A DNA stretch of 64,000 nt from Bacteroidota bacterium (GTDB lineage: Bacteria; Bacteroidota; Ignavibacteria; UBA10030; UBA8401). The notes beneath the pieces were generated by a model. That model was not told where the DNA came from. It made no database searches and saw nothing but the letters and a program-made list of their open reading frames with translations. The first letter of the stretch is position 1. Every line of letters starts with the position of its first letter. The translations under genes were made by a program, and so were the position numbers. Shown here piece after piece: positions 5,471-40,678 of the stretch. The stretch covers positions 2,273 to 66,272 of the forward strand of contig JABWAK010000002.1 in NCBI GenBank assembly GCA_013361065.1. Reading direction: 5' to 3'.

Positions 5471-7126
5471 ATGGAATCCCTCATACACATCCTCGCGGAG
5501 AACAAGCTCATCCTGCTCTTCTCCATCATCGGCCTCGGCTTCCTCGTCGGACAGCTGCGGGTGCTCGGTTTCAGTCTGGGCGTAGCAGCCGTCCTCTTCA
5601 CCGGTATCGCATTCGGCGCGCTGGACAAGCGCCTGATACTGCCGGAAGAGATCTACATCGTCGGCCTCGTCCTGTTCGTCTACTCGATCGGTCTGCAGTC
5701 CGGACCGAGTTTCTTCGCCTCCTTCAACCGGAAGAGCCTCCGCGCGAACCTCTTCGTGGTGCTCATCCTCATCTCCGGTGCGGCGATCGCCGCCCTGTTC
5801 ACGCAGCTCTTCGGGTTCGATGCACCGAACGCTGCCGGGATCTTCTGCGGCGCACTGACCAACACGCCGGCGCTTGCCGCTTCTGTGGAAGCGGTGAAAT
5901 CGTACACCGCCCAATACCCGGCGGAACTGCGCGAACAGCTGCTGAACGCCCCGGTGATCACCTATGGTCTCACCTATCCCTTCGGCGTGCTGGGGGTGAT
6001 CCTCTGGTACTACATCTTCGCCAAATGGCAGAAGGTCGATTTCGCAAAGGAAGAGGCGGAGCGGAGCCGGGAGGCCGGCTCGGGCGCCATCCTCACCAAG
6101 ACGTTCCTCGTAACGAATCCCGCCGTCATCGGCAAGCAGGCGGAGGAGGTGCTGAACCTGATCGAACAGCGCCGGTTCGTCCTGAGCCGCTTCAAACGGG
6201 GGACGACCATCAACATCATCCTGCCGGACACGGTGTTCGAGAAGAACGACCTGATCGCCGCGGTCGGCACGGCCGATGCGCTGCAGCGTGCGCAGATCAT
6301 CCTCGGCGAGGCGGCGGACGACAAGCTGACACTGGACAATGCCGGCTTCGAGTACCGGCGGATGTTCGTCTCCAACGAGCATGTGGTCGGCAAAGAGATC
6401 CACGACCTGCATCTGGAGAAGGAGTACGGCGCGACCATCACACGCGTGCGCCGCGGCGATGTCGATTTCGTCCCCTCACCCGACACCATTCTGGAACTCG
6501 GCGACCGCGTCCGCGTGGTGACGCGCCACGAGAACATCCAGCGCATCACGAACTTCTTCGGTGATTCGATGAAGTCGATCTCCGAGACCGATTTCCTCTC
6601 CATCTCCCTCGGCATCGTGCTCGGGGTGTTCCTCGGTATGCTACCCATCCCGCTCCCCAACGGCTCCACGTTCAAACTGGGGTTCGCCGGCGGACCGCTC
6701 ATCGCCTCGCTCATCCTCGGACGGCTCCAGCGGACCGGTTCCATCACCTGGACGATGCCGTTCAACGCCAATCTGGTGCTGCGGCAGATCGGCCTGGTCT
6801 TCTTTTTGGCCGGGATCGGCGTGAAAGCCGGTCAGGGGTTCGGCGCAACGTTCCAGGCGGACGGTCTCGTGATGATCGCTGCGGGAGCCCTGCTGACAAC
6901 GGTTATTTCGTTCTTGACATTGACCATCGGTTATAAATATCTTCATCTCCCCATGTCCGCCGTCATGGGGGTCTCCAGTGCGCTCCAGACGCAGCCTGCG
7001 GCACTCGCCTACGCGAACCAGCAGGCACGGAACGACCAGCCGAACATGTACTATGCGATGGTCTATCCGGCATCGATGATCACCAAGATCATCCTGGCGC
7101 AGATGCTGATCACGGCGTTGTGGTAA
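5471..7126 (+). CDS. YidE/YbjL-family putative transporter (AAE family), duplicated permease halves with two central TrkA-C (RCK_C) domains
   Basis: N-terminal MESLIHILAENKLILLFSIIGLGFLVGQL..., two soluble RCK_C-like segments in the middle, second permease half at C-terminus. Confidence 0.85.
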   Translation: MESLIHILAENKLILLFSIIGLGFLVGQLRVLGFSLGVAAVLFTGIAFGALDKRLILPEEIYIVGLVLFVYSIGLQSGPSFFASFNRKSLRANLFVVLILISGAAIAALFTQLFGFDAPNAAGIFCGALTNTPALAASVEAVKSYTAQYPAELREQLLNAPVITYGLTYPFGVLGVILWYYIFAKWQKVDFAKEEAERSREAGSGAILTKTFLVTNPAVIGKQAEEVLNLIEQRRFVLSRFKRGTTINIILPDTVFEKNDLIAAVGTADALQRAQIILGEAADDKLTLDNAGFEYRRMFVSNEHVVGKEIHDLHLEKEYGATITRVRRGDVDFVPSPDTILELGDRVRVVTRHENIQRITNFFGDSMKSISETDFLSISLGIVLGVFLGMLPIPLPNGSTFKLGFAGGPLIASLILGRLQRTGSITWTMPFNANLVLRQIGLVFFLAGIGVKAGQGFGATFQADGLVMIAAGALLTTVISFLTLTIGYKYLHLPMSAVMGVSSALQTQPAALAYANQQARNDQPNMYYAMVYPASMITKIILAQMLITALW

Positions 7127-7149
7127 TTCCGTAAGGGGGAAGTGTCCGA

Positions 7150-8409
7150 ATGCGATCCGTCAGTCTCTTGTTCATCCTCATCAGCGTCCTGTCCGCACAG
7201 AACCCGTTCGAGGCGTACTACCTTTCCAAACAGCGTCTGCAGGAGAAGGATACCGCCGGCTACTTCTATCTGGCGGAGCAGGCGTACACGCTTGCGCCGT
7301 TCAACCTGGAGTTCACCGTCAATTATGCCCGCGCCTGCGTCACCGTGAACCGGCACATCCGCGCCACGAACCTGCTGCAGGCGGTGGCGGATATGGGATT
7401 CGATTACGACTTGGAGAACGATACCACCTTCCGTCCCCTCTGGAACCAGTCCAAATTCAAACAGCTCAACGCCAAAGCGGAACAATCGTCCAAACTCACG
7501 GCGAGCAACTACGCCTTCTCCGTGAAGGAGAAGGATCTCGTGCCGGAGGGGATCACCTACGATCCCCGTCAGCAGAAGTTCTACATCAGCAGCGTCTACA
7601 AACGGAAGGTGGTCGGCATCAATCTGGACGGGACGACGTTCGACCTGTTGGGCGAAGCGCAGGACGGTCTCTACAGCACGCTGGGGATGAAGGTGGATGC
7701 AGCACGGAACCATCTCTGGATCGCCGGTGTGCTGAACACACCGAAGGCGCGGACGATGGGAGCGGGAGATATGGGCAAGTCCGCCGTGTTCCAGTACGAC
7801 CTGGAGACCAAGCGGCTGCTGAAGAAGTACGTGCCGGACGATACGCTCACCCACCTGTTCAACGACATCGCCACGGTGAACGGATCGGTCTATGTGACGG
7901 ACAGCGAGAACGGCGCCGTGTACCGCATCGATAAAGAGACGCAGACGATGACCCCGTTCTTCCGGTGGGACGGCATGTTCTATCCCAACGGCATCACGTA
8001 CACGCCGGACCGAAAGTATCTCTTCGTGGCGCACTGGGCCGGCATCAGCCGCATCTCACTGGCCGACACGCAGATGGTGATGCTGCAGCACAAGCCGACC
8101 ACCACGCTCACCGGGGTGGACGGTCTCCTCTTCCATGAGAACGCGCTCATCGCCGTACAGAACGGCGCCGGACCGCAATCGCGGATCGTCCGCTTCGAAC
8201 TGAACAAGACGATGGATGCGGTTGCAAAAGCCACGGTGCTCGAGTCGCAGAACCCGCTCTACAATATCCCCACCACCGGCACCATCGTGGATGATGAGTT
8301 CTTCTTCATCGCCAACAGTCAGCTGCAGAACTTCGATGCGCAGGGGAACATCTTCCCCGCGGAACGGATGCAGCCGACCTACATCCTGAAACTGAAACTG
8401 AAGGAATGA
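7150..8409 (+). CDS. Secreted hypothetical protein, predicted six-bladed beta-propeller (SMP-30/gluconolactonase/strictosidine-synthase-like)
   Basis: Signal peptide MRSVSLLFILISVLSAQ; repeated VY..D...G..YR / LF...NGI motifs; family assignment tentative. Confidence 0.4.
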   Translation: MRSVSLLFILISVLSAQNPFEAYYLSKQRLQEKDTAGYFYLAEQAYTLAPFNLEFTVNYARACVTVNRHIRATNLLQAVADMGFDYDLENDTTFRPLWNQSKFKQLNAKAEQSSKLTASNYAFSVKEKDLVPEGITYDPRQQKFYISSVYKRKVVGINLDGTTFDLLGEAQDGLYSTLGMKVDAARNHLWIAGVLNTPKARTMGAGDMGKSAVFQYDLETKRLLKKYVPDDTLTHLFNDIATVNGSVYVTDSENGAVYRIDKETQTMTPFFRWDGMFYPNGITYTPDRKYLFVAHWAGISRISLADTQMVMLQHKPTTTLTGVDGLLFHENALIAVQNGAGPQSRIVRFELNKTMDAVAKATVLESQNPLYNIPTTGTIVDDEFFFIANSQLQNFDAQGNIFPAERMQPTYILKLKLKE

Positions 8410-19983: not shown

Positions 19984-21123
19984 ATGTCCTCCGCAGCTCC
20001 CGAGCCCCGTGATACCGTCTGGTCCCGTCTGAAACAGGACTGGGAATCCTTCACCGCCACCGTTCGTTCCGAATGGAAGGAACTCACCGACCGATTGAAT
20101 TCGTCCGGACGCTGGAACAGCGCGCTCGTGCGGGAATCGAACGAGGTGACCGATTTCTATCTGACCGCGGCACAGCACGAACGGCTGAAGACGATGCGGC
20201 AGTTCGAGCAGGTGCTGTACAAGACCGGCTGGGTCTTCCGCGCGATGTTCGAACGGCTCCGTCCGGAACGCCGTCTGCTTGCGCTCGCCGGTATCTTCCT
20301 GCAGTTCTTCAACGACCAGAACAACAATAATTCGCTCATCGGCTCCCTCTTCCTGGTACTGGTGATCATGCTGGAGCTGAAGGACAAGCTGATGGCGCAC
20401 GATGAACTTGCCGCCGGTCGGAAGATCCAGCAATCACTGATGCCGCCGCGGATGCCCTCCGTGCCGGGATGGGAACTGTGGCTCTTCACCCGCTCGGCGA
20501 ATGAAGTGTGCGGTGACCTGATCGACTTCATCCCCGGAACGGAAGGACGCTCTGCCGTCGTCATGGCGGACGTCTCAGGCAAAGGACTCCACGCTGCTCT
20601 CATCACCACAAAATTACAGGCGACCATCCGCGCACTGGCCGGAGAGATCGGATCGCTGCCGGTCCTGATCGCCCGCATCAACACCATCGTTCACCGGGAC
20701 AGTCCCTCACACATCTTCGCTTCGCTGGTCTATGCGGAGATCACCGAACAGCATGGGACCGTCCGCTACGTGAATGCCGGTCATTATCCTGCGCTTATCA
20801 TCCGCGGCACCGGTCATGAGGAATGCCCGAAGGGTGAACCGGCGCTCGGTCTCGCACGGAGCGTTCCGTACACGGAACAGAGCATCGGCCTGCAGCCGGG
20901 CGATGCGTTCGTCCTCTATTCGGACGGACTGACCGAGGCGAAGAATGCGCAGGGGGATTTCTTCGGCAAGGAACGGTTGGTGTCCCTCTTGACCGCCTCT
21001 GCCGGGAATGCGGAACAGACCGGCAATGGCGTCCTGCGGGAGGTGGAGCGGTTCTGCGGCATGGCAGCAGCAACGGATGACCTTTCTCTGATCATCCTCC
21101 GGCGCACAGGAGCTTCCGTATGA
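19984..21123 (+). CDS. PP2C-family serine/threonine phosphatase (SpoIIE/RsbU-like)
   Basis: GDLIDF...MADVSGKGLHAAL...YVNAGHYPAL...GDAFVLYSDGLTEA...DDLSLIIL. Confidence 0.85.
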   Translation: MSSAAPEPRDTVWSRLKQDWESFTATVRSEWKELTDRLNSSGRWNSALVRESNEVTDFYLTAAQHERLKTMRQFEQVLYKTGWVFRAMFERLRPERRLLALAGIFLQFFNDQNNNNSLIGSLFLVLVIMLELKDKLMAHDELAAGRKIQQSLMPPRMPSVPGWELWLFTRSANEVCGDLIDFIPGTEGRSAVVMADVSGKGLHAALITTKLQATIRALAGEIGSLPVLIARINTIVHRDSPSHIFASLVYAEITEQHGTVRYVNAGHYPALIIRGTGHEECPKGEPALGLARSVPYTEQSIGLQPGDAFVLYSDGLTEAKNAQGDFFGKERLVSLLTASAGNAEQTGNGVLREVERFCGMAAATDDLSLIILRRTGASV

Positions 21124-22025
21124 CCGGTGTGCCGGAAGAACGGTCCGCCGGCTCGGCGGCTTCGAAGGGGATCCGCTCCGCCCTTGCCGGCATCGTGGTG
21201 AACGGTGCGCTGGCGCTGGTGAAAGGGATCGCGGGTTTCCTCGGCAACTCCTATGCCCTCATCGCCGATGCGATCGAATCGGCGTCCGATGTGGTGAGCT
21301 CACTCATCGTGGTGAGCGGACTGCGCATCGCGGCGAAGCCGCGCGACGAGAACCATCCGTACGGACACGGGAAAGCCGAACCGATCGCCGCCCTGGTGGT
21401 GGCGCTCTCCCTGTTTGGCGCGGCGGTCACTATCATCCTACAAAGCTATCACGAGATCATCACCCCGCATCATGCCCCGGAACCGTTCACGCTGATCGTC
21501 CTCATCATTGTCGTCGTCGTCAAGGAAGCGCTCTTCCGTTCGGTCTTCCGCGTAGCGGAGGAGGTGCAGAGCACCGCTGTGCGGACCGATGCCTGGCATC
21601 ATCGGAGTGACGCCATCACCTCCGCCGCCGCGTTCATCGGCATCTCCGCAGCGCTCATCGGCGGTGACGGATACGAAAGTGCGGATGACTGGGCGGCACT
21701 CTTCGCATCGGTCATCATCATCTACAACGCATACGGTCTCTTCCGTCCCGCCCTGGACGAGATCATGGACGCCGCCCCGCCGGCGGATGTGGCGGAGCGG
21801 GTGCGTGCCGCTGCGGCCACGGTCCCCGGAGTGCTGGGACTGGAGAAATGTTTCGTGCGGAAGATGGGACTCGACTATTTCGTCGACCTTCATGTGATCG
21901 TGGACGGTGCCGCGACCGTCCGCGAAGGACACCGGATCGGCCACGATGTGAAGGATGCGGTCTGTCATGCACTGCCACGCATCGCCGATGTGATGGTGCA
22001 TATCGAGCCGGATACCTTCGGCTGA
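21120..22025 (+). CDS. Cation diffusion facilitator (CDF) family transporter
   Basis: ALIADAIESASDVVSSL...HPYGHGKAEPIAAL... six TM helices plus C-terminal cytoplasmic domain. Confidence 0.85.
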   Translation: MTGVPEERSAGSAASKGIRSALAGIVVNGALALVKGIAGFLGNSYALIADAIESASDVVSSLIVVSGLRIAAKPRDENHPYGHGKAEPIAALVVALSLFGAAVTIILQSYHEIITPHHAPEPFTLIVLIIVVVVKEALFRSVFRVAEEVQSTAVRTDAWHHRSDAITSAAAFIGISAALIGGDGYESADDWAALFASVIIIYNAYGLFRPALDEIMDAAPPADVAERVRAAAATVPGVLGLEKCFVRKMGLDYFVDLHVIVDGAATVREGHRIGHDVKDAVCHALPRIADVMVHIEPDTFG

Positions 22026-22126
22026 CCCTGTCCCGGTTGTTTCTCACTGCGTAAAACATTACTTTCTCTTGTGCGGGGGGGGCACCCCGTCCGCATTTCC
22101 CCCATCTGACGGCGGTAAGGATCCCT

Positions 22127-23401
22127 GTGAACTGGCACCCATCCATCATCGGCAACTTCTTCCTTGTCACGACGCTCTTTGCCGTGATCGTTGCATACCG
22201 TGCCTCACGCCGCATCTTCCCGGGGAAGGATTTCCTCGTCCTGTTCATCGGTTCCGCCGCGGTCTGGACCCTTACCAGTGCGCTGGAATGGTACTCCGTG
22301 GAAGCGGAGACCAAGGCCTTCTGGTCCCAGCTGAGCTATATCGGCATCGTCAACGTCTCCCCCGCCTGGCTCTGCTATTCCCTCGTCTATTGCGGATACC
22401 CGCAGCTGCTCACGCAGAGGAACCTGCTGCTGCTCTGGATCATCCCGGCGGTGACCCTGGCGTTGGCGCTCACCAACAGCTGGCACGGACTCAACTGGCC
22501 CGCCTACTATATGGTGGAGCATCCGCTCGGCAACTACATGTTCTACGAACATGGTCCTTCGTTCTGGGTGCTCACCGTCTATTGTTACATTGTGAACATC
22601 ACGTACAGCGTCCTGATGGTGCGCCAATCCCGGAGGCTGTACGCTTCCTTCCGGATGCAGTCCCTCATCCTCTTCTTCACCGTCTCGCTGCCGTGGATCG
22701 GCAACATCCTCTATAATGCACGCATCGTCACGGTGATCGACCTGACACCGGCAGCGTTCACCGTCACCGGCGCGCTGCTGCTCTGGAACATGCAGCAGTT
22801 CCGCCTCTTCGACATCACGCCGATCGCCCGCGAGCAGCTCTTCGCCGAGTTCCGTCAGATCGCCATCGTCCTCGATGCACAGCAGCGGGTTGTGGATATG
22901 AATCCGTTCGCGCTGAACAGTTTCAGCTTCGCCCGGTCCCCCATCGGCAAACCGGTCGGGGAGGTCTTCCCGTTCTGGCCGCAGCTGCTCTCGTTCCTGC
23001 GGGCGGACAATATCGCCGAACTGGAACTGAAGCTCGAGCATCAGGGGGAGCCGGAATGGTACCTGGTCTCTCGGACACCGCTCACCAAACAACGCGGGTC
23101 CGCTTCAGGGACACTGCTCATCTGCCGCAACATCACCATGCAGAAACAGCGGGACGATGAGCGGGAGATGCTCATCGCAGAGCTGCAGGAAGCGCTCGCC
23201 AGCGTGAAGACGCTCGGCGGACTGCTCCCGATCTGTGCCAGCTGCAAGAAGATCCGCGATGATGAGGGGTACTGGAGCCAGGTGGAGCAGTACATCGCCA
23301 AGCACACCGACGCGAAATTCACGCACGGCATCTGTCCGGACTGCGGGAAGAAAGCACTGGAGGAGTACTATCGGGCGAAGCAGCAGAAGGTGACGTCGTG
23401 A
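22127..23401 (+). CDS. Membrane sensor: histidine-kinase-type N-terminal 7TM domain + PAS-like domain + C-terminal 4-Cys/His tail; no kinase, GGDEF or HTH output
   Basis: Seven predicted TM helices (HisKA_7TM-like), PAS-like middle, C-terminus GGLLPICASCKKIRDDEGYWSQVEQYIAKHTDAKFTHGICPDCGKK. Confidence 0.6.
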   Translation: MNWHPSIIGNFFLVTTLFAVIVAYRASRRIFPGKDFLVLFIGSAAVWTLTSALEWYSVEAETKAFWSQLSYIGIVNVSPAWLCYSLVYCGYPQLLTQRNLLLLWIIPAVTLALALTNSWHGLNWPAYYMVEHPLGNYMFYEHGPSFWVLTVYCYIVNITYSVLMVRQSRRLYASFRMQSLILFFTVSLPWIGNILYNARIVTVIDLTPAAFTVTGALLLWNMQQFRLFDITPIAREQLFAEFRQIAIVLDAQQRVVDMNPFALNSFSFARSPIGKPVGEVFPFWPQLLSFLRADNIAELELKLEHQGEPEWYLVSRTPLTKQRGSASGTLLICRNITMQKQRDDEREMLIAELQEALASVKTLGGLLPICASCKKIRDDEGYWSQVEQYIAKHTDAKFTHGICPDCGKKALEEYYRAKQQKVTS

Positions 23402-23781
23402 GATTCGCACGGAATGTCTTCTCCTTCGCCGGCAGTTACGGCATCGTCGTCACCCTGCCGCTCTATTTCAGCGAAGCACGCATCGGCATCGACCAGCCGC
23501 CGGCCATCACCCATCCCGAGTACTTCTACGGATTCATCGGTGTCACGCTCGCCTGGCAGGTGCTGTTCCTGATGGTGGCGCGCGACGTCCAGCGGTACCG
23601 CATGATGATGCTTCCGGCCATCCTGGAAAAGTTCTCGTACGCCGCTGCCGGCGGTGCACTCTTCGCAATGGGAAGGATCGGTCAGACCGTGGCGGCATTC
23701 GCGGCGGTCGATCTCCTCTTCGGCATCCTGTTCATCCGGGCTTTCCTCCTGACCAGGGAGCCGGTCCCGTTCCGCCCATGA
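23398..23781 (+). CDS. Small hypothetical membrane protein (3-4 TM)
   Basis: Hydrophobic segments; GTG start overlapping stop of sensor gene (GTGA). Confidence 0.4.
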   Translation: MRFARNVFSFAGSYGIVVTLPLYFSEARIGIDQPPAITHPEYFYGFIGVTLAWQVLFLMVARDVQRYRMMMLPAILEKFSYAAAGGALFAMGRIGQTVAAFAAVDLLFGILFIRAFLLTREPVPFRP

Positions 23782-23799
23782 CCTTCCGGTGACCGCTGC

Positions 23800-24369
23800 A
23801 TGGAAGACCTTACCGCATTCCTGAGACTGTTCGGAACCCTTTCCGATGAAGATGCCGCTCTGATCTGCGATGCCTGCCGCCCCCGTCACTATGCCAAAGG
23901 AGAGGTCATCACTGCCGCGGGAGCACTCCAGCGCGACCTGCTGTTCGTCCATGACGGTATCCAGATGTCATATCATGAGCATGATGGTAAACTGCATGTG
24001 ATCGCGTTCACCTATCCGCCTTCCTTCAGCGGTGTACCGGAATCGTTCCTGCATCAGACACCCTCCCCGTATACACTGCAGGCGCTCACCGCCTCGCACT
24101 GTTCTGCCATCGCCCGGGAGCAGCTGGACGGGCTCTTCGACCGCTCGCAGGCGATCGAGCGGATCTTCCGCCGCACCGCCGAGACGATGCTTACCGGACT
24201 GCTCGTGCGGCACCGGGAACTGCAGGCGCTCTCCATGGAGGAACGGTTCACCGCATTCGCACAGCGAAGCCCCCACCTGCTCCGCATGGTCCCGCACAAG
24301 TACCTCGCATCATATCTGAACATCGACCCGACCAACTTCAGCAAGCTCTTCAACAGCGTCCGCATCTGA
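23800..24369 (+). CDS. Crp/Fnr-family transcriptional regulator
   Basis: cNMP-binding-like N-terminus and C-terminal HTH ...YLASYLNIDPTNFSKLF. Confidence 0.8.
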   Translation: MEDLTAFLRLFGTLSDEDAALICDACRPRHYAKGEVITAAGALQRDLLFVHDGIQMSYHEHDGKLHVIAFTYPPSFSGVPESFLHQTPSPYTLQALTASHCSAIAREQLDGLFDRSQAIERIFRRTAETMLTGLLVRHRELQALSMEERFTAFAQRSPHLLRMVPHKYLASYLNIDPTNFSKLFNSVRI

Positions 24370-24439
24370 CCTTGGTGTGGACCAACATTCCGACGCTGTG
24401 CAATGCGTATCTTGCCATGACCACGAATCGGGAGACCGC

Positions 24440-24757
24440 ATGACCACACGAGTTCGCGCCCTGCTGCTGGGGACCGCATTGTTCGGCTTCACTGTGCCGA
24501 ACGGGATGTTCTTCTATTTTCTCTTCGTTGAGTTCACATCGATCACCGATATCCTGACCAATTGGCTGGCGCTCGGCTTCATCATCGACGCATTCATGGC
24601 GACAGGACTGCTGGCGGTCTGGTTCGCTCATCGGCCGCCGGGGAGATATTCCTGGAAGGCGTTCGTGGTGTTGAGTCTTGCGGGGGGATTGGGGTTCTCG
24701 CTGCCGTTCTTCTACTATCTGAACAAGCGGAATGATGATAGTGTCGGCCCGGACTGA
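24440..24757 (+). CDS. Small hypothetical membrane protein
   Basis: MTTRVRALLLGTALFGFTV... three TM helices; GGAGA upstream of ATG 24440. Confidence 0.5.
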   Translation: MTTRVRALLLGTALFGFTVPNGMFFYFLFVEFTSITDILTNWLALGFIIDAFMATGLLAVWFAHRPPGRYSWKAFVVLSLAGGLGFSLPFFYYLNKRNDDSVGPD

Positions 24758-31477: not shown

Positions 31478-31824
31478 GGAGGATGCTGATGAATGTGAAG
31501 GGTGTCTGTTCAGGGATTGCTGCATCACCCTACAAATATACGCACTGACGTTGCGTGAGGGTCAAGGGCGAATGGTCAAAAATTTACATTTTTTTCGGTT
31601 AGAATGTGCTCTGCGGGGATGCCGTTACCGCCGGAGATGCAGTAGTTGGCGATAGCGGTATATTTTTATTCTACACTGTTGCTTATCCGTGTCAAAAAGA
31701 TCAATTTACGGTATGAGATTGTGATGGGGGGGGCATTCCGTATAATTCACATTTAAATAAATAATCATTGATAAATTCTATCTAATCTTATGTTGGGCCG
31801 TTTTTCAACCAGAGAGTTGTTACC

Positions 31825-35760: not shown

Positions 35761-36327
35761 ATGAAGATCGGCACAACATTCTATACCCCTCACCGCTCCG
35801 TCTGGCGTGCCTGGCTCGCCAAGCACCATGCGACCGCCTCCGAGATCTGGCTCATCTATTACAAACAGGGTGCTTCCAAGAAGCGGATACCGTACCACGC
35901 TGCGGTGGAAGAAGCGCTCTGCTACGGCTGGATCGACAGCACAACGAAAGCGATCGACGCGGAACGGTATGCACAGCGGTTCTCACCGCGCCGTCCCGGC
36001 TCGGTCCTGTCCGGCCTGAACAAGGAACGGATCCTGCGGCTGATCGCCTCCAAAAAGATGCGCAAGGCCGGGATGACGGCGCTGGCGCACCATCTGGATG
36101 CGAACGGACGCCTGCCGGAAGCGTACACCTTCCCGAAGGATATCCTCGCCGCCATCCGGAAGAACCGTGCGGCCTGGCAGCATTATCAGAAGTTCCCGCT
36201 CCCCTACCGCCGCATCCGCGTTGCGTGGATCGACGGAGCGCGGGACCGGCCCTCCGTGTTCCGGACGCGGCTCCGCTATTTCATCACCAAATGCGAACGG
36301 AACGAACGGTTCGGGATGGAACGGTGA
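35761..36327 (+). CDS. YdeI/OmpD-associated family protein
   Basis: ...EIWLIYYKQGASKKRIPYHAAVEEALCYGWIDSTTKAIDAERYAQRFSPRRPGS... matches this family. Confidence 0.7.
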   Translation: MKIGTTFYTPHRSVWRAWLAKHHATASEIWLIYYKQGASKKRIPYHAAVEEALCYGWIDSTTKAIDAERYAQRFSPRRPGSVLSGLNKERILRLIASKKMRKAGMTALAHHLDANGRLPEAYTFPKDILAAIRKNRAAWQHYQKFPLPYRRIRVAWIDGARDRPSVFRTRLRYFITKCERNERFGMER

Positions 36328-36414
36328 TACCGCCCTCCCGCCACTCCTTCTCCGTCCGCTGACCGTACTGAACCGGTACCGGTCCTCTGTCCATCACCTC
36401 CAACGAACGCATCC

Positions 36415-38781
36415 ATGCTGAAACGATCATTCTTACTCCTTCTCATTGTCATTCTCATTCCGCCCGGACTTCTCCGCGCTCAATCGGACGACAGCTGGAA
36501 GATCTATTCCGATACCTCCGTTGCCCGCATCGATATCACCATCGATCCAACAGCCCTGCAATGGATCTATGCCAATGAACAGAGCGACAGTGAACATGTC
36601 GCCTCGGTCCGCTTCCGCAACCGATGGCTGGACGAGTCGGTGGATTCCATCGGCTTCCGGCTGCGGGGCAACACCAGCAGGGCCGCGAAGAAGAAATCGT
36701 TCAAAGTGTCGTTCAATTCCTTCCTCAAAGGACGGAAGTTCCACGGCGTGGAGAAACTGAATCTGAACGGCGAGCACAACGATCCTTCCATCATCCGCAG
36801 CAAACTGTCGTTCGACATGTTCCGGGACCTCGGCATCACCGCCACGCGCGCCAATCATGCGCGGGTGTTCATCAACGGCGGATACTACGGTCTGTACGTG
36901 AACGTGGAGCATGTGGACGAGAATTTTCTGGCGCGGCGGTTCGCGGACGACGGCGGAACGCTCTGGAAATGCCTCTATCCGGCCGACCTGAAGTACCTCG
37001 GCACGGATCCCGACCTCTATAAGAAGGTGATGAACAACGCCACGACGCGTGCGTACGAACTCTCGCAGGGCACCGGGGATGATTATACGCCGCTGGCGCG
37101 CCTCATCGCCATCGTGAACAATACGACCGCCGGAGCGCTGCCCGATTCGCTGGAGAGGGTGATGGATATTCAGCGCCTGCTGCAGTACTTCGCCGTGAAC
37201 ACGCTCGTCGGCTCGTGGGATGATTACCGCTCGCTGATGAACAATTACTACCTGTACCTGGACCCGCAGACACGGAAGTTCATCGTGATCCCGTACGATT
37301 ACGACAATACCTTCGGCGTGGACTGGTTCTCGGTGAACTGGTCCGCCGCGAACCCGTACTCCTACCCGAAAGCAGCCGCCGGTTCCCGTCCGCTCTGGGA
37401 CCGGATCATCACCATCCCGCAGTACCGCGATCTGTACACGCACTTCCTCCGGTTCTCGCTCGATACGGCATACGCGCTCCGCCATTGGGAGTCCCGGCTG
37501 GACCGGCTGAAGGATTCGATCCTCTCCGCGGCACTGGAGGATACCTACCGCACGATGGACTACGGATTCACGATCGCCGATTTCATGAACTCCTTCGGGA
37601 CCGGTCCGTACTCCAAACAGCATGTGAAGATGGGACTGAAACAGTTCGTGAATGCCCGGAGCAGTTCACTTCCGGCGCAGCTCACCTCCGTCACCGCGCC
37701 GCCGATGGTGTACCGCATCGGCGTCATCCCGTCCGTCCCCTCCCCAACCGATTCATTGACGGTGCAAGCCTCCGCCTACGCTGCCATCGGTCTCCGTGCG
37801 CTCTGGGTGCAGTACACACCGGCGGGAGGAACCGCTCAGCTCCATCCCATGCAGCGCACACCGGTACCGGGCACACGGTTGGTGGAAGAGGCGGACCGCT
37901 GGACCGCAGTGCTCCCGCCGCTCGGTCCGGGCGGGAACGGCACCTTCCGCATCGTCGCGGAGGATTCTCTTTCGCAGTCCTCGGTCTTCCCGCGCAGCGG
38001 TTCCGTCCGTGTCTCCGCACCGGACCTCCCCGGCACATCGGTGGTGATCAACGAATTCATGGCGGACAACACGACCATCCCCGACCCGTCCGGACAGTAT
38101 GATGACTGGGTGGAACTGTACAATCCAACAGCGGCGGCGGTGACCATCACAGGGAAGTATCTGACGGACAAAGCGACCTCGCTCACCAAATACCGGTTCA
38201 CCCAGCCGGGCTTGAGCATCCCTCCCGGCGGTTATCTGATGGTCTGGTGCGATGAGGAGCTGACGCAGCCCGGCGTGCACGCTAACATCAAACTGAGCGC
38301 CGGCGGCGAGTTCCTTGCACTGACCGACAGCGACGGGGTGACGGTACTCGATTCCATCTCCTTCGGACCGCAGACGGCGAACATCTCGATGGGCCGGCTG
38401 CCGAACGGGAGCGGACCGTGGACCAGTATGGCTCCCACACCGCTGGCATCGAACGGCTCGGTTGCCGCAGTGGAAGGAGAGGAGATGATCCCGCGGACGC
38501 TCACACTGAGCGCCTATCCGAATCCGTTCAACCCCGTCACCACGTTCCGCTTCACGGTGCCGGCCGATGCTGTGCAGGGCGGGAGCGGCGGAACGGCACC
38601 GGTGGTGCTTGAATTGTATACCATGCTGGGAGAACGGGCTGCAACCGTGCTACAGGACCATCGTCCCGCCGGCACCTATGCCGTGGAATGGAATGCTGCC
38701 CGGTTCGCCAGCGGTGTGTACATTGCAGTGATGCGGGCCGGACCGGCTGTGCGGCAGATGAAGGTCGTCCTGCTGAAATAG
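36415..38781 (+). CDS. CotH kinase-family protein + lamin-tail domain (LTD) + T9SS C-terminal sorting domain
   Basis: Signal peptide; CotH region; LTD (INEFMADNTTIPDPSGQYDDWVELYNPT...ANIKLSAGGEFLALTD); C-terminus LSAYPNPFNPVTTFRF...VYIAVM... (T9SS CTD). Confidence 0.8.
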   Translation: MLKRSFLLLLIVILIPPGLLRAQSDDSWKIYSDTSVARIDITIDPTALQWIYANEQSDSEHVASVRFRNRWLDESVDSIGFRLRGNTSRAAKKKSFKVSFNSFLKGRKFHGVEKLNLNGEHNDPSIIRSKLSFDMFRDLGITATRANHARVFINGGYYGLYVNVEHVDENFLARRFADDGGTLWKCLYPADLKYLGTDPDLYKKVMNNATTRAYELSQGTGDDYTPLARLIAIVNNTTAGALPDSLERVMDIQRLLQYFAVNTLVGSWDDYRSLMNNYYLYLDPQTRKFIVIPYDYDNTFGVDWFSVNWSAANPYSYPKAAAGSRPLWDRIITIPQYRDLYTHFLRFSLDTAYALRHWESRLDRLKDSILSAALEDTYRTMDYGFTIADFMNSFGTGPYSKQHVKMGLKQFVNARSSSLPAQLTSVTAPPMVYRIGVIPSVPSPTDSLTVQASAYAAIGLRALWVQYTPAGGTAQLHPMQRTPVPGTRLVEEADRWTAVLPPLGPGGNGTFRIVAEDSLSQSSVFPRSGSVRVSAPDLPGTSVVINEFMADNTTIPDPSGQYDDWVELYNPTAAAVTITGKYLTDKATSLTKYRFTQPGLSIPPGGYLMVWCDEELTQPGVHANIKLSAGGEFLALTDSDGVTVLDSISFGPQTANISMGRLPNGSGPWTSMAPTPLASNGSVAAVEGEEMIPRTLTLSAYPNPFNPVTTFRFTVPADAVQGGSGGTAPVVLELYTMLGERAATVLQDHRPAGTYAVEWNAARFASGVYIAVMRAGPAVRQMKVVLLK

Positions 38782-38815
38782 ATCCTCTTCTTTTCCACTA
38801 TTGAACGGAGGCGTT

Positions 38816-39325
38816 ATGAGTCGATGGTTGTGCACCGTTGCAGCGTTTCTTCTGTTCTCCTGCGGCACGGCGGAGCCCGAGGTTCCGGCGGATCTGGAAC
38901 AGGCGGCCGCCGTGATCGAACGTTTCGCATCGCCGATGCGGCTCGGCAATTCCATGTTCGCGGCAGCATACCCGGAATGCAAAGCTACGCAGTTCGTCCA
39001 TTATCTCTTCTCGGACCTGGCCGCCGCAGAACTGCCGATCGGAGAGAGCATGGGGGATGAGATGGACCGGGCGCAGGCGCAGGCGAGCGGGATGCCGCTC
39101 TGGCCGGACAGTGTGGCGATGTCCGAACAGGTGCCGGATCCGACCGCCGGGCGGCAGATCGTCCTGACGGGCGATGATACGAAGAATACGGTCTCGATTG
39201 CACTGTACACCGACCCGAAGAGTCCGCCGGTGGCCGTCCGTGAAGTGACGGTGCCGCACGTGACCGCCAGCGAGATGGCGCAGGCGTTCTTCCGTTCCAA
39301 TGTGGAGATGGGGGCGCGGTACTGA
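38816..39325 (+). CDS. Hypothetical lipoprotein
   Basis: MSRWLCTVAAFLLFSCG lipobox. Confidence 0.45.
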   Translation: MSRWLCTVAAFLLFSCGTAEPEVPADLEQAAAVIERFASPMRLGNSMFAAAYPECKATQFVHYLFSDLAAAELPIGESMGDEMDRAQAQASGMPLWPDSVAMSEQVPDPTAGRQIVLTGDDTKNTVSIALYTDPKSPPVAVREVTVPHVTASEMAQAFFRSNVEMGARY

Positions 39326-39409
39326 CACCGATCCGGCGGGGAACACAAAGACGCGGCAGAGCGGACCGTCCGCTGCCGCTGGATGAATATTGAAAGGAAC
39401 CGTTCGGAT

Positions 39410-40678
39410 ATGAACGAACAACCGCAGCAGACCGCTTTCACCCGGTACCAGATCTTCATCATCGCCGTGCTGGCATTCATCCAGTTCACGGTGATCCTTG
39501 ATTTCATCATCGTGGCGCCGCTCGGCGCCCTGCTGATGAGCATCATGCACATCACCCCGGGGGAGTTCGGCACCATCGTCTCCGCGTACGCCTTCAGCGC
39601 CGGTCTCTCCGGATTCCTGGCGGCGGGGTTCGCGGACCGGTACGACCGGAAGCATTTCCTGCTCTTCTTCTATGCCGGCTTCATCCTCGGCACCTTCCTC
39701 TGCGGCATTGCGACCGACTACACCTTCCTGCTCGTTGCGCGCATCATCACCGGAATCTTCGGCGGCGTGATCGCCTCCGTTTCGCTCGCCATCGTGGCGG
39801 ACCTCTTCCCGCTGAACGCGCGGAGCCGGGTGATGGGATTCGTGCAGATGTCCTTCGCGGTGGCACAGGTGGCCGGCATCCCGCTCGGCGTCTATCTGGC
39901 GAACGAGTTCGGATGGCATGCGCCGTTCATGCTCATCGTCGCGATCGGCGTCCCGGCCGGCATCGCCATGATGAAGCTGGTGCGTCCCATCGACGACCAT
40001 CTCGCCGCCGGCGGAGCCTCGCATAATGCGTTCCAGCATCTCTGGCGCACCATCTCCGAGAAGCGGTACACCGCCTCGTTCTCCACGACCACCACGCTCA
40101 CCCTCGGTGGATTCCTGCTGATGCCCTTCTCCAGCGCATTCCTTGTCTATAATGTCGGCATCGCGCAGGAGCAGCTGCCGTTCGTCTTCATGGCGACCGG
40201 CATCACGACCATCATCGTGCTGCCGATCGTCGGGCGTCTCAGCGACCGCATCGGCGCGCTCCGGATGTTCACCATCGGCACGGCGATCGCCGCTGTGATG
40301 GTGGTGGTCTACACCAACATGGGCATCACACCGCTGTGGGAGGTGGTGCTCATCAACATCATCTTCTTCACCGGCATGGTCTCGCGGATGATCCCCGCTA
40401 CCACCACGATGACGGCGGTGCCGGAACTGACGGACCGCGGGGCATTCATGAGCATCAGTTCATCGCTGCAGCAGGTGTCGGGCGGGATCGCATCGGTGAT
40501 CGCCGGGATGTTCATCGGCAAAACGGCGGAGGGTGCGCTGGTGAACTACAATTATCTCGGCTATGTGACGGTGGGAATGATGATCGTCGGAGCGGTGCTG
40601 ATGGGCGTGGTGCACCGGCAGGTGCAGGCGAAAGGTGCGGCGGCAGCGGCGAATATCAGCGGAGAGGTTCACCACTAA
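39410..40678 (+). CDS. MFS transporter
   Basis: 12 TM helices; ...FADRYDRKHFLL... MFS loop motif. Confidence 0.85.
   Translation: MNEQPQQTAFTRYQIFIIAVLAFIQFTVILDFIIVAPLGALLMSIMHITPGEFGTIVSAYAFSAGLSGFLAAGFADRYDRKHFLLFFYAGFILGTFLCGIATDYTFLLVARIITGIFGGVIASVSLAIVADLFPLNARSRVMGFVQMSFAVAQVAGIPLGVYLANEFGWHAPFMLIVAIGVPAGIAMMKLVRPIDDHLAAGGASHNAFQHLWRTISEKRYTASFSTTTTLTLGGFLLMPFSSAFLVYNVGIAQEQLPFVFMATGITTIIVLPIVGRLSDRIGALRMFTIGTAIAAVMVVVYTNMGITPLWEVVLINIIFFTGMVSRMIPATTTMTAVPELTDRGAFMSISSSLQQVSGGIASVIAGMFIGKTAEGALVNYNYLGYVTVGMMIVGAVLMGVVHRQVQAKGAAAAANISGEVHH

What the first reader, a model, noticed from the sequence alone, without database searches (positions are those of the whole stretch)
22127..23401. 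7TM-PAS sensor whose only output module is a C-terminal 4-Cys/His zinc-ribbon-like tail
The protein has an N-terminal histidine-kinase-type 7TM domain and a PAS-like domain. Where a HisKA/HATPase, GGDEF or HTH output would sit, it ends with ...LPICASCKKIRDDEGYWSQVEQYIAKHTDAKFTHGICPDCGKK. This conserved-looking Cys-x2-Cys ... His-x3-Cys-x2-Cys motif is, to my knowledge, not a named signalling output domain. It is followed by a small membrane protein (translationally coupled, GTGA overlap) and a Crp/Fnr regulator, which may be its partners. A G8 tract (22075-22082) lies about 45 bp upstream of the start, a possible slipped-strand site.
Basis: partly seen in the sequence, partly recalled or inferred. 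Interest (0 to 1): 0.55.

Follow-up and report, generated by a model that had tools for sequence, protein, structure and literature searches.

The report
Unnamed Cys4/His2 signalling output domain
This membrane sensor ends in a small, extremely conserved, probably metal-binding module instead of a kinase or DNA-binding domain; the same unnamed module caps tens of thousands of bacterial sensors and response regulators, so it is probably a widespread signalling output whose target is unknown.

Summary
Window 22127-23401 (+) encodes an intact 424-aa protein: HisKA_7TM (E 1e-53), PAS, a heptad coiled coil, then a fixed 40-aa core LPICASCKKIRDDxGYWxQxExYxxxH[ST]xAxF[ST]HGICPDC. It is not a truncated kinase: 58 orthologues of 400-445 aa carry the same tail. 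No Pfam, NCBIfam, PDB-sequence or Foldseek/PDB match covers the tail, and nine literature searches found no description.

The module is very common. It hits 24,137 clusters (50 % identity) and appears under at least 15 phylum-level names. It is always C-terminal and always follows input or receiver modules (PAS, REC, GAF, HAMP, MASE, Cache, 7TM), never a known output domain. REC-tail proteins follow canonical histidine kinases, so the tail is an effector domain. In distant orthologues the core keeps 71 % identity against about 31 % for 7TM/PAS, through selection on the protein.

The mechanism is inferred. A dimeric coiled coil probably repositions two metal-binding cores that engage a conserved trans-acting partner. 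A protein partner is more likely than nucleic acid, because the core is acidic and no flanking motif or partner gene recurs.

The Crp-like gene and G8 tract are not conserved, the small membrane ORF only locally, and the motif is H-x2-C, not H-x3-C.

The parts
22127..23401 (+). Sensor gene, 424 aa (= GenBank NUN68160.1, annotated 'PAS domain-containing protein', Bacteroidota MAG)
   Evidence: ORF. A 100 % identical database protein appears. Orthologues of 414-431 aa cover 99-100 % of it.
22163..22822 (+). HisKA_7TM membrane sensor domain (aa 13-232)
   Evidence: Pfam PF16927, E 1.2e-53, profile positions 3-224 of 224.
22853..23146 (+). PAS domain (aa 243-340)
   Evidence: Pfam PAS_4, E 1.4e-6, 28.9 bits against a 23.1 cutoff.
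23153..23224 (+). Conserved coiled-coil linker (aa 343-366), consensus E.ERE.LI.EL..AL..VK.L.GL, part of the tail module
   Evidence: Hydrophobic a/d heptad at positions -18, -14, -11, -7 and -4, each 92-100 % hydrophobic in 170 sequences. Modelled as a helix. Identity in distant orthologues is 61 %.
23225..23344 (+). 40-aa Cys4/His2 core (aa 367-406): LPICASCKKIRDDEGYWSQVEQYIAKHTDAKFTHGICPDC. Putative metal ligands are C370, C373, C403 and C406; H393 and H400 are also conserved
   Evidence: The length is fixed at 40 aa in 170 of 170 sequences, and 26 of 40 positions are at least 84 % conserved. Invariant residues are listed. Identity in distant orthologues is 71 %. The AlphaFold model has mean pLDDT 84.
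23345..23398 (+). Variable C-terminal helix (aa 407-424)
   Evidence: Helix 60-79 of the model. Only 12 % identity in distant orthologues. Between 8 and 41 residues follow the last Cys in 74 host proteins.
23398..23781 (+). 127-aa membrane protein with no family; its start overlaps the sensor's stop (GTGA). This is local context, not a conserved partner
   Evidence: It is 63 % identical and likewise overlapping in L083. It is absent in L001, L002 and the distant orthologues.
23800..24369 (+). Crp-like gene (cNMP-binding domain), not linked to the sensor in relatives
   Evidence: Pfam cNMP_binding, E 2.4e-10. It is absent from all six orthologous contexts examined.
19984..22025 (+). Upstream SpoIIE/PP2C phosphatase (19984-21123) and CDF cation-efflux gene (21120-22025), syntenic with the sensor in close relatives only
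   Evidence: Pfam. The order TPR, SpoIIE, CDF, sensor is found in L001, L002 and L083 but not in distant orthologues.
22075..22082 (+). G8 tract, a chance feature that is not conserved
   Evidence: Two in the window against 2.9 expected. It lies in a window-specific insertion relative to L083, L002 and L001.

Best explanation
The gene encodes an intact membrane one-component-type sensor: HisKA_7TM, PAS, a coiled coil, then a C-terminal Cys4/His2 module. That module is a widespread signalling OUTPUT domain with no name in the resources searched. It takes the place that HisKA/HATPase, GGDEF or HTH domains occupy in other sensors and response regulators.

Proposed mechanism:
- The protein is a parallel dimer.
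- Signal perception by the 7TM/PAS part (phosphorylation of REC in paralogues) changes the register or rotation of the conserved coiled coil.
- That repositions the two 40-aa cores it carries. Each core is held together by a metal ion, most likely Zn, on the four invariant Cys, with two conserved His nearby.
- The nearly invariant surface (KKIRDD-GYW-Q-E-Y) then gains or loses binding to one conserved cytoplasmic target encoded elsewhere in the genome. The target is more likely a protein than DNA or RNA.

Shown here: the architecture, the exclusively C-terminal position, the exclusive association with input and receiver modules, the pairing of REC-tail proteins with histidine kinases, the heptad linker, the extreme protein-level constraint, and the absence of any known family match.

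Inferred, not shown: metal binding, dimerisation, and the nature of the target.
For: - Intact and not truncated: orthologues of 414-431 aa across phyla, 58 of them carrying the tail.
- The tail profile hits 24,137 clusters at 50 % identity, 19,839 of them at E<=1e-10. At least 593 genomic loci fall under at least 15 phylum-level names.
- The tail is always terminal, with 8-41 aa after the last Cys in 74 of 74 host proteins.
- Two independent Pfam censuses (74 genome-derived hosts; 116 library representatives) find only input or receiver modules upstream: PAS, REC, GAF, HAMP, MASE3/6, Cache, PocR, Reg_prop, HisKA_7TM. No HisKA/HATPase_c, GGDEF, EAL, HD or HTH family appears in the complete 25-family list or among the 25 families shown of 41.
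- REC-tail proteins lie directly after canonical HisKA+HATPase_c kinases, with a 4-nt overlap in L003. In those operons the tail is a response-regulator effector domain.
- Two-copy proteins are tandem fusions of whole sensor-plus-tail units, which confirms that the tail ends a signalling unit.
- A clean a/d heptad runs into the core. The core length is invariant (170 of 170) and 26 of 40 positions are at least 84 % conserved.
- The core is 71 % identical where 7TM and PAS are 30-32 %. Codon position 3 is 43 % identical against 78 % and 88 % at positions 1 and 2, so selection acts on the protein.
- Mean net charge of the core is -1.9. No flanking k-mer exceeds controls, no Rfam match was found, and no neighbour family recurs other than kinases. 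This favours a common trans-acting protein target.
- The AlphaFold model (pLDDT 84) reads helix, strand with CxxC knuckle, helix, strand, then CxxC at a helix N-terminus.
Against: - No experiment or structure exists, and the metal has not been identified. Six Cys/His could also hold an Fe-S or redox centre.
- No partner was identified, so the protein-target idea rests on negative evidence (charge, no motif, no linked gene).
- The k-mer test is weak, because it uses exact words only.
- I could not inspect model coordinates, so Cys proximity was not verified.
- My apparent evidence for autonomous stand-alone tails collapsed: all three cases examined are split genes.
Confidence: 0.6

Rival explanations
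1. The tail is a zinc-finger-type nucleic-acid-binding domain. On this reading, the 7TM-PAS-tail protein is a membrane-tethered one-component transcription or RNA regulator (as ToxR/CadC or ANTAR proteins are), and REC-tail proteins are ordinary DNA- or RNA-binding response regulators.
For: The module is a small Cys4 domain with a K-K-x-R stretch right after the first knuckle and exposed aromatic residues (GYW). REC plus a small C-terminal domain is the commonest DNA-binding regulator layout, and the pairing with kinases fits that. Archaeal Cys-rich regulator outputs such as HalOD2 were predicted to bind DNA or RNA (PMC5847659). ANTAR shows that a highly conserved output can serve many sensors by binding a conserved RNA motif (my own knowledge).
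Against: The core is acidic, with mean net charge -1.9 and only 5 of 170 sequences positive. The presumed recognition surface is nearly identical in thousands of paralogous sensors, so they would all bind the same sequence. No shared k-mer appears in the 250 nt flanking 67-70 host genes beyond controls. There is no Rfam element around the window gene. No Pfam DNA-binding or zinc-ribbon model reaches threshold on 121 tails.
Confidence: 0.2
2. The tail is not an output but an extra input or a structural cap. It would be either a redox- or metal-sensing Cys/His centre (a Zn-thiolate switch or Fe-S cluster), or simply a metal-stapled dimerisation cap on the coiled coil. The proteins would then act through other surfaces, for example by heterodimerising with kinases or as phosphate sinks.
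For: There are six conserved Cys/His where four would suffice for structural zinc. Zn-Cys4 redox switches such as RsrA and Hsp33 are established (my own knowledge). Many host lineages are anaerobes or sediment bacteria. A CDF metal exporter sits directly upstream in this clade.
Against: These proteins would then have no output at all, including response regulators paired with dedicated kinases. A structural cap does not explain near-invariance of about 20 non-ligand surface residues, or of the linker's solvent-facing E/R/Q/K positions. The CDF linkage is confined to close relatives.
Confidence: 0.12
3. The tail is a minimal catalytic domain. For example, a second metal site formed by the two His and a conserved Glu or Asp could make or degrade a small signalling molecule.
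For: Conservation is at enzyme level, the length is fixed, and H393, H400, E387, D378 and D379 are invariant or nearly so besides the four Cys. The domain behaves architecturally like GGDEF or HisKA.
Against: Forty residues is very small for an active site. There is no similarity to any enzyme in Pfam or the PDB, and no nucleotide-binding motif is evident.
Confidence: 0.05
4. It is an artefact: a histidine kinase gene truncated by an assembly frameshift, or a chance Cys-rich tail.
For: HisKA_7TM usually precedes a kinase core (Pfam family description). Frameshift-split tail genes do occur in some MAGs.
Against: The same 414-431-aa architecture ending in the same tail occurs in dozens of independent assemblies from several phyla. 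The downstream ORF is an unrelated membrane protein. The tail has 24,137 homologous clusters.
Confidence: 0.01

Closest known systems
Coiled-coil (S-helix)-coupled output domains of bacterial sensors and response regulators (HisKA/DHp, GGDEF, ANTAR)
   Same: The architectural slot is the same: C-terminal to PAS, GAF, HAMP, REC or membrane sensors and joined by a conserved heptad helix. In the REC form it is partnered with histidine kinases. Like ANTAR, it is small and conserved across many different sensors.
   Different: There is no sequence or profile similarity to any of them. It is Cys4/His2 and presumably metal-dependent. It is far smaller than HisKA+HATPase or GGDEF. No target RNA or DNA motif was found.
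Predicted Cys-rich response-regulator output domains of archaea (HalOD2, TackOD1; Galperin et al. 2018, PMC5847659)
   Same: These are REC-associated, uncharacterised outputs with CXXC pairs that are predicted to bind Zn.
   Different: They are lineage-restricted (a few halobacteria, or TACK archaea) and have different Cys patterns: two CXXC 20-25 residues apart after a HalX-like helix, or 11 Cys. The present module is bacterial, pan-phylum, has the extra H-x6-H, and is attached to many sensor types.
HP0958/FlgZ-type coiled coil plus C4 zinc ribbon (DUF164, zf-RING_7; PMC3372290)
   Same: A long coiled coil ends in a small Cys4 metal domain that works through protein (RpoN) and RNA contacts rather than catalysis. 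This is a useful precedent for a partner-binding mode. I saw it in the abstract listed.
   Different: There is no Pfam hit to that family on the tail. FlgZ has no sensor domain and a different Cys spacing. This is an analogy only.
ZAS anti-sigma motif (H-x3-C-x2-C) and DksA/TraR C4 fingers
   Same: Both have a His/Cys cluster ending in C-x2-C, and both are small domains that bind the transcription machinery (my own knowledge).
   Different: The spacing here is H-x2-C-x2-C, with a C-x2-C knuckle 29 residues upstream. No hit to zf-HC2 or zf-dskA_traR appeared at E<=10, and no PDB profile hit to such proteins.

Membership tests
HisKA_7TM sensor family (PF16927) | Full-length match to the 7-TM N-terminal domain model above the gathering score | tested here: met
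   E 1.2e-53, 182.7 bits against a 28.6 cutoff, profile positions 3-224 of 224.
PAS domain | Match to a PAS-clan model above the gathering score | tested here: met
   PAS_4 gives 28.9 bits against a 23.1 cutoff at residues 243-340.
Sensor histidine kinase | DHp/HisKA phospho-acceptor domain with H-box | tested here: not met
   No HisKA-type hit at E<=1. The region after PAS is the coiled coil plus the Cys/His core.
Sensor histidine kinase | HATPase_c catalytic domain | tested here: not met
   No hit. The protein ends 18 aa after the last Cys, and the next ORF is an unrelated membrane protein.
Classical zinc ribbon | Two CxxC knuckles, each on a beta-hairpin, with a match to a zinc-ribbon profile | tested here: not met
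   All Pfam zinc-ribbon models are sub-threshold (best E 0.087-0.18 on this tail; at most 4 of 121 tails at E>=0.0016). The model places the second CxxC at the N-terminus of a helix, which is treble-clef-like.
Metal (Zn)-binding Cys4 domain in general | Four invariant Cys in two CxxC pairs positioned to chelate one ion | tested here: inconclusive
   The four Cys are invariant in 170 sequences, and the secondary structure is compatible. Model coordinates could not be inspected, and metal content cannot be tested in silico.
ZAS (zf-HC2) anti-sigma domain | H-x3-C-x2-C motif within an anti-sigma helical domain | tested here: not met
   The motif is H-x2-C-x2-C, and there is no zf-HC2 hit.
DksA/TraR C4 zinc finger | C-x2-C-x17-C-x2-C finger matching PF01258 | tested here: not met
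   The spacing is C-x2-C-x29-C-x2-C, with no hit at E<=10.
Response-regulator or one-component OUTPUT domain (functional class, not a sequence family) | Occupies the C-terminal effector position after receiver or input domains, is the sole non-input domain, and its REC forms are encoded next to cognate kinases | tested here: met
   position and partners; kinase followed by REC-tail operons. Effector activity itself is not testable with these tools.
Crp/Fnr regulator (neighbouring gene 23800-24369) | cNMP-binding domain plus C-terminal HTH_Crp | tested here: inconclusive
   cNMP_binding is met at E 2.4e-10, but Pfam detects no HTH at E<=1. NCBIfam CRP gives only E 0.036.

The most novel reading that the evidence does not exclude
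The coiled-coil plus Cys4/His2 module is a previously unrecognised major class of bacterial signalling output. At least 24,000 distinct sensor and response-regulator families across 15 or more phyla would use it, all converging on one universal, still unknown cellular target such as a component of the transcription or translation machinery, through a metal-dependent switch. That would add a new branch to the known set of outputs: phosphotransfer, second-messenger turnover, DNA/RNA binding and partner switching.
Probability: 0.4. Interest if true: 0.85.

Novelty: new variant of a known kind. Interest (0 to 1): 0.65.

Why it matters
Bacterial signal transduction is catalogued by its output domains, because they tell us what a sensor controls. 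Here a module as common as many named outputs has no name in the resources searched, no structure and no known target. It is found in 24,137 clusters and is present in sulfate reducers, nitrifiers, Acidobacteriota, Bacteroidota, Verrucomicrobiota, spirochaetes and others. Current annotation therefore calls all these proteins 'PAS domain protein', 'response regulator' or 'hypothetical'. Its near-invariance across phyla implies a single, strongly conserved target. Identifying that target would assign a function to thousands of orphan sensors at once and could reveal a new regulatory hub in environmentally important, mostly non-model bacteria. A Pfam/InterPro model for it is an immediate practical gain.

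Tried and rejected
- **Known-domain searches.** I ran Pfam on the whole protein, on the tail alone and on 121 tails, NCBIfam, PDB sequence searches with one sequence and with a profile, and Foldseek against the PDB with two models. Nothing was significant. The best PDB profile hit (TarL N-terminus, E 0.0023) is a 20-residue helix match with a per-domain E of 1.9, and I rejected it.
- **Literature.** I made nine searches: motif strings, HisKA_7TM, and several combinations of output domain, zinc ribbon, CXXC and response regulator. I also read the relevant passages of PMC5847659 and PMC1592074. None describes this module.
- **Stand-alone tail mini-proteins.** I first took the 83-101-aa hits on long contigs as evidence of an autonomous module. 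Inspection showed all three to be split genes, caused by a stop codon or frameshift after a TM, Tll0287-like or PAS ORF. I dropped the claim.
- **Partner by gene neighbourhood.** I clustered 383 neighbouring ORFs from about 73 loci. Only histidine-kinase/PAS-type sensor genes recur (20 loci), and the next cluster occurs in 4 loci.
- **Cis-element hunt.** Exact 8-10-mers in the 250-nt flanks of 67-70 host genes did not exceed random-region controls. Rfam found nothing around the window gene.
- **Plasmid collection.** There was one hit, a GAF...tail gene broken by IS21 in Dongshaea marina.
- **G8 phase-variation idea.** The tract is not enriched and not conserved.
- **Promoter and terminator scan.** Nothing exceeded shuffled expectation.
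- **Other copies in the window.** There are none.
Full report
**1. The observation**

The window carries an ORF at 22127..23401 (+), 424 aa with a GTG start.

- Pfam assigns HisKA_7TM to residues 13-232 (E 1.2e-53, full model length) and PAS_4 to 243-340 (28.9 bits against a 23.1 cutoff). It assigns nothing to the last ~80 residues.
- NCBIfam gives only sub-threshold PAS-region matches to kinases.
- The tail alone finds only noise in Pfam (best zf-C4pol, E 0.018) and in PDB sequences (best E 0.93).
- The protein is 100 % identical to GenBank NUN68160.1, 'PAS domain-containing protein', from a Bacteroidota MAG.
The sequence is ...F-T-H-G-I-C-P-D-C..., which is H-x2-C-x2-C. The full pattern is C-x2-C-x19-H-x6-H-x2-C-x2-C.

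**2. It is not a truncated kinase**

A search with the full-length protein returned 1,231 hits at E<=1e-10. The listed ones are overwhelmingly 414-431 aa with HisKA_7TM plus PAS and no further Pfam domain. Their sources are named Bacteroidota, Spirochaetia, Vicinamibacterales and Cyanobacteria. Of these, 58 full-length proteins (400-445 aa) carry the Cys/His motif at their end.

**3. The tail is a very large, very rigid family**

- A search with the last 78 aa found 547 proteins at 60-80 % identity.
- A profile of 24 tails scored against 1.84 billion cluster representatives found 24,137 proteins at E<=1e-3, 19,839 at E<=1e-10 and 4,620 at E<=1e-30.
The 80 loci kept carry names from Nitrospirota, Thermodesulfobacteriota and 'Deltaproteobacteria', Acidobacteriota, Bacteroidota, Ignavibacteriae, Verrucomicrobiota, Victivallales, Spirochaetota, Chloroflexota, Zixiibacteriota, Latescibacterota, Calditrichaceae, Sumerlaeota, Neomarinimicrobiota, Rifleibacteriota and Anaeromyxobacteraceae. 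A disrupted copy lies on a plasmid of the gammaproteobacterium Dongshaea marina.
- In 170 sequences the core is exactly 40 residues long with no insertion or deletion, and 26 of the 40 positions are at least 84 % conserved. The consensus is LPICASCKKIRDDxGYWxQ[IV]ExYIxxH[ST][ED]AxF[ST]HGICP[DE]C.
- The 24 residues before the core are also conserved (E.ERE.LI.EL..AL..VK.L.GL). They show a clean a/d heptad, with positions -18, -14, -11, -7 and -4 each 92-100 % hydrophobic.
- Across distant 7TM-PAS-tail orthologues (31-50 % overall identity), the core is 71 % identical, the linker 61 %, the 7TM domain 32 % and the PAS domain 30 %.
- Among 73 core-coding DNA segments, codon positions 1, 2 and 3 are 78 %, 88 % and 43 % identical. 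The constraint is therefore on the protein and not on a DNA or RNA element.

**4. It sits in the output position**

- In 74 genome-derived host proteins of 101-1177 aa, the motif is always at the extreme C-terminus, with 8-41 residues after the last Cys.
- A Pfam census of those 74 hosts found PAS (30), REC (13), GAF (6), Reg_prop/Y_Y_Y (5), HAMP (4), HisKA_7TM (3), Tll0287-like, MASE3 and VUPS.
- A Pfam census of 116 representatives from the large library found PAS (72), MASE6 (16), REC (15), HAMP, GAF, PocR, Cache and a periplasmic binding domain.
- The 25 families are the complete list, and it contains no HisKA, HATPase_c, GGDEF, EAL, HD or HTH family. None of these appears among the 25 families shown (of 41) either.
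- Proteins with two copies are tandem fusions of whole units, such as REC-tail-REC-tail or TM-tail-TM-tail.
- Clustering 383 neighbouring ORFs found one recurrent family, present in 20 loci and mostly immediately upstream. In three of the four loci checked (L003, L037, L077) it is a canonical HisKA+HATPase_c kinase followed by a REC-tail gene, overlapping by 4 nt in L003. In the fourth (L045) it is a PAS-only protein upstream of a PAS-tail gene.
- In those operons the tail is therefore the effector domain of a response regulator. This rules out reading it merely as an input module.

**5. Structure**

With 24 sequences the AlphaFold model reached pLDDT 72. With 121 sequences it reached 84. The elements, in protein numbering, are:

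| Element | Residues | Note |
|---|---|---|
| Helix | 346-359 | coiled coil |
| Strand | 364-370 | ends in the C370-x2-C373 knuckle |
| Loop | 371-381 | |
| Helix | 382-393 | ends at H393 |
| Strand | 397-401 | contains H400 |
| Helix | 404-423 | C403 and C406 lie at its first turn |

**6. What the tail acts on**

The evidence here is indirect.

- The core is acidic, with mean net charge -1.9, and only 5 of 170 sequences are positive. That is unusual for a DNA- or RNA-binding finger.
- The presumed interaction surface is almost identical in thousands of paralogous sensors.
- No gene family other than kinases recurs nearby.
- No 8-10-mer in the flanks of 67-70 host genes exceeds random-region controls.
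- Rfam finds nothing around the window gene.

Together these favour one conserved target encoded elsewhere, more likely a protein than a nucleic acid. The test is weak and the target is unknown. The role of the two conserved His is also open: they could be a fifth and sixth ligand, a second metal site, or partner contacts.

**7.

- The GTGA overlap with the 127-aa membrane ORF (23398..23781) is real.
- That ORF is 63 % identical and likewise overlapping in relative L083. It is missing in L001 and L002. In L002 the sensor is followed directly by the homologue of the window's 24377..24757 ORF.
- The Crp-like gene (cNMP-binding domain, E 2.4e-10, no HTH detected) is absent from all six orthologous contexts.
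- What is conserved in the close clade is the upstream order TPR, SpoIIE phosphatase, CDF cation exporter, sensor. Distant orthologues have unrelated neighbours, for example a PQQ-repeat protein.
- The G8 tract occurs at chance frequency (2 against 2.9 expected) and lies in a ~26-nt insertion absent from the orthologous intergenic regions.
- The window holds no second copy of the tail.

**8. A correction to my own lead**

Short proteins of 83-101 aa consisting of coiled coil plus tail on long contigs looked like autonomous versions. All three that I examined are split genes:

- In L088 the tail ORF extends upstream into a TM helix that continues a multi-TM ORF ended by a stop codon.
- In L089 a Tll0287-like ORF overlaps the tail ORF by 62 nt.
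- In L090 a PAS ORF lies upstream, with stop codons in between.

I therefore make no claim that the module occurs on its own.

**9. Comparison with known systems, and novelty**

Functionally the module behaves like other coiled-coil-coupled outputs (HisKA, GGDEF, ANTAR), but it shares no detectable sequence or profile similarity with them.

- The closest conceptual precedents are the predicted Cys-rich response-regulator outputs of archaea, HalOD2 and TackOD1 (PMC5847659). These are lineage-restricted and have different Cys patterns.
- Another precedent is the coiled coil plus zinc ribbon of HP0958/FlgZ, which binds RpoN (PMC3372290, abstract).
- ZAS and DksA-type fingers fail on motif spacing and on profile search.
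- Nine literature searches found no description.
- Sources name these proteins only by their N-terminal domains, or as 'hypothetical'.

I cannot exclude a description in subscription-only literature or in a newer InterPro release. I class the finding as a new variant of a known kind: a modular bacterial sensor or response regulator with an uncharacterised output domain that has no name in the resources searched. There is a substantial chance that it represents a new output class.

**10. Verdict**

The proposed partners and the G8 idea are not supported. The mechanism is inferred: a metal-stapled dimeric output that engages a conserved trans-acting partner. Confidence in the overall explanation is 0.6, and interest is 0.65.

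Noticed in passing
window 22037-22070, with L083:3930-3975 and L002:4930-4975: The intergenic region upstream of the sensor holds a conserved element, TTGTTTCTCAnT..G.AAAA...GTACTTT, shared with orthologous loci. It is promoter-like, possibly Bacteroidota-type -33/-7 boxes. If so, the sensor has its own promoter downstream of the CDF gene. The sigma-70 consensus scan found nothing there.
   Followed up: partly
window 21120-22025: A CDF-family cation (zinc-type) efflux gene with a ZT_dimer domain lies immediately upstream of a sensor that ends in a putative Zn-binding module. The adjacency is conserved in relatives at 65-74 % identity (L001, L002, L083) but not in distant orthologues. This could be coincidence or a clade-specific metal link.
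   Followed up: partly
L088:3426-4306, L089:3241-4291, L090:2964-4252: Apparent stand-alone tail mini-proteins in MAG and SAG assemblies are split genes, with a stop codon or frameshift between a sensor ORF and the tail ORF. They are either sequencing errors or genuine pseudogenes. Short 'hypothetical proteins' of this family in databases should be read with that in mind.
   Followed up: yes
L087 (Dongshaea marina plasmid NZ_CP028898.1, record 36172-39473): A GAF-domain gene and a tail-coding remnant are separated by an IS21 element. This is a tail-bearing sensor gene disrupted by transposition, and it was the only hit among 72,556 plasmids.
   Followed up: partly
L064:2474-5167 and 5475-8240, and proteins P0241-P0268: Two large tail-bearing sensor genes (897 and 921 aa) lie in tandem in one Bacteroidota MAG. 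About 30 library representatives contain two complete sensor-plus-tail units fused in one polypeptide (REC-tail-REC-tail, TM-tail-TM-tail). This points to frequent local duplication of whole units.
   Followed up: partly
window 23398-24369 compared with L002:6271-6579: Relative to the orthologous locus L002, the window carries an extra block: the 127-aa membrane ORF plus the Crp-like gene. The block sits between the sensor and the DUF2834-like 126-aa membrane protein (window 24377-24757). The SASA-family gene on the minus strand follows in both loci.
   Followed up: partly
window 19984-21123: A SpoIIE/PP2C-type phosphatase (379 aa, possibly membrane-associated at its N-terminus) overlaps the CDF gene start by 4 nt and is preceded in relatives by a TPR protein. 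Partner-switching phosphatases are signalling components, but no STAS or anti-sigma genes were seen in the stretch examined.
   Followed up: no
window 31726-31733: This is the second and only other G8 run in the window. I did not examine it.
   Followed up: no
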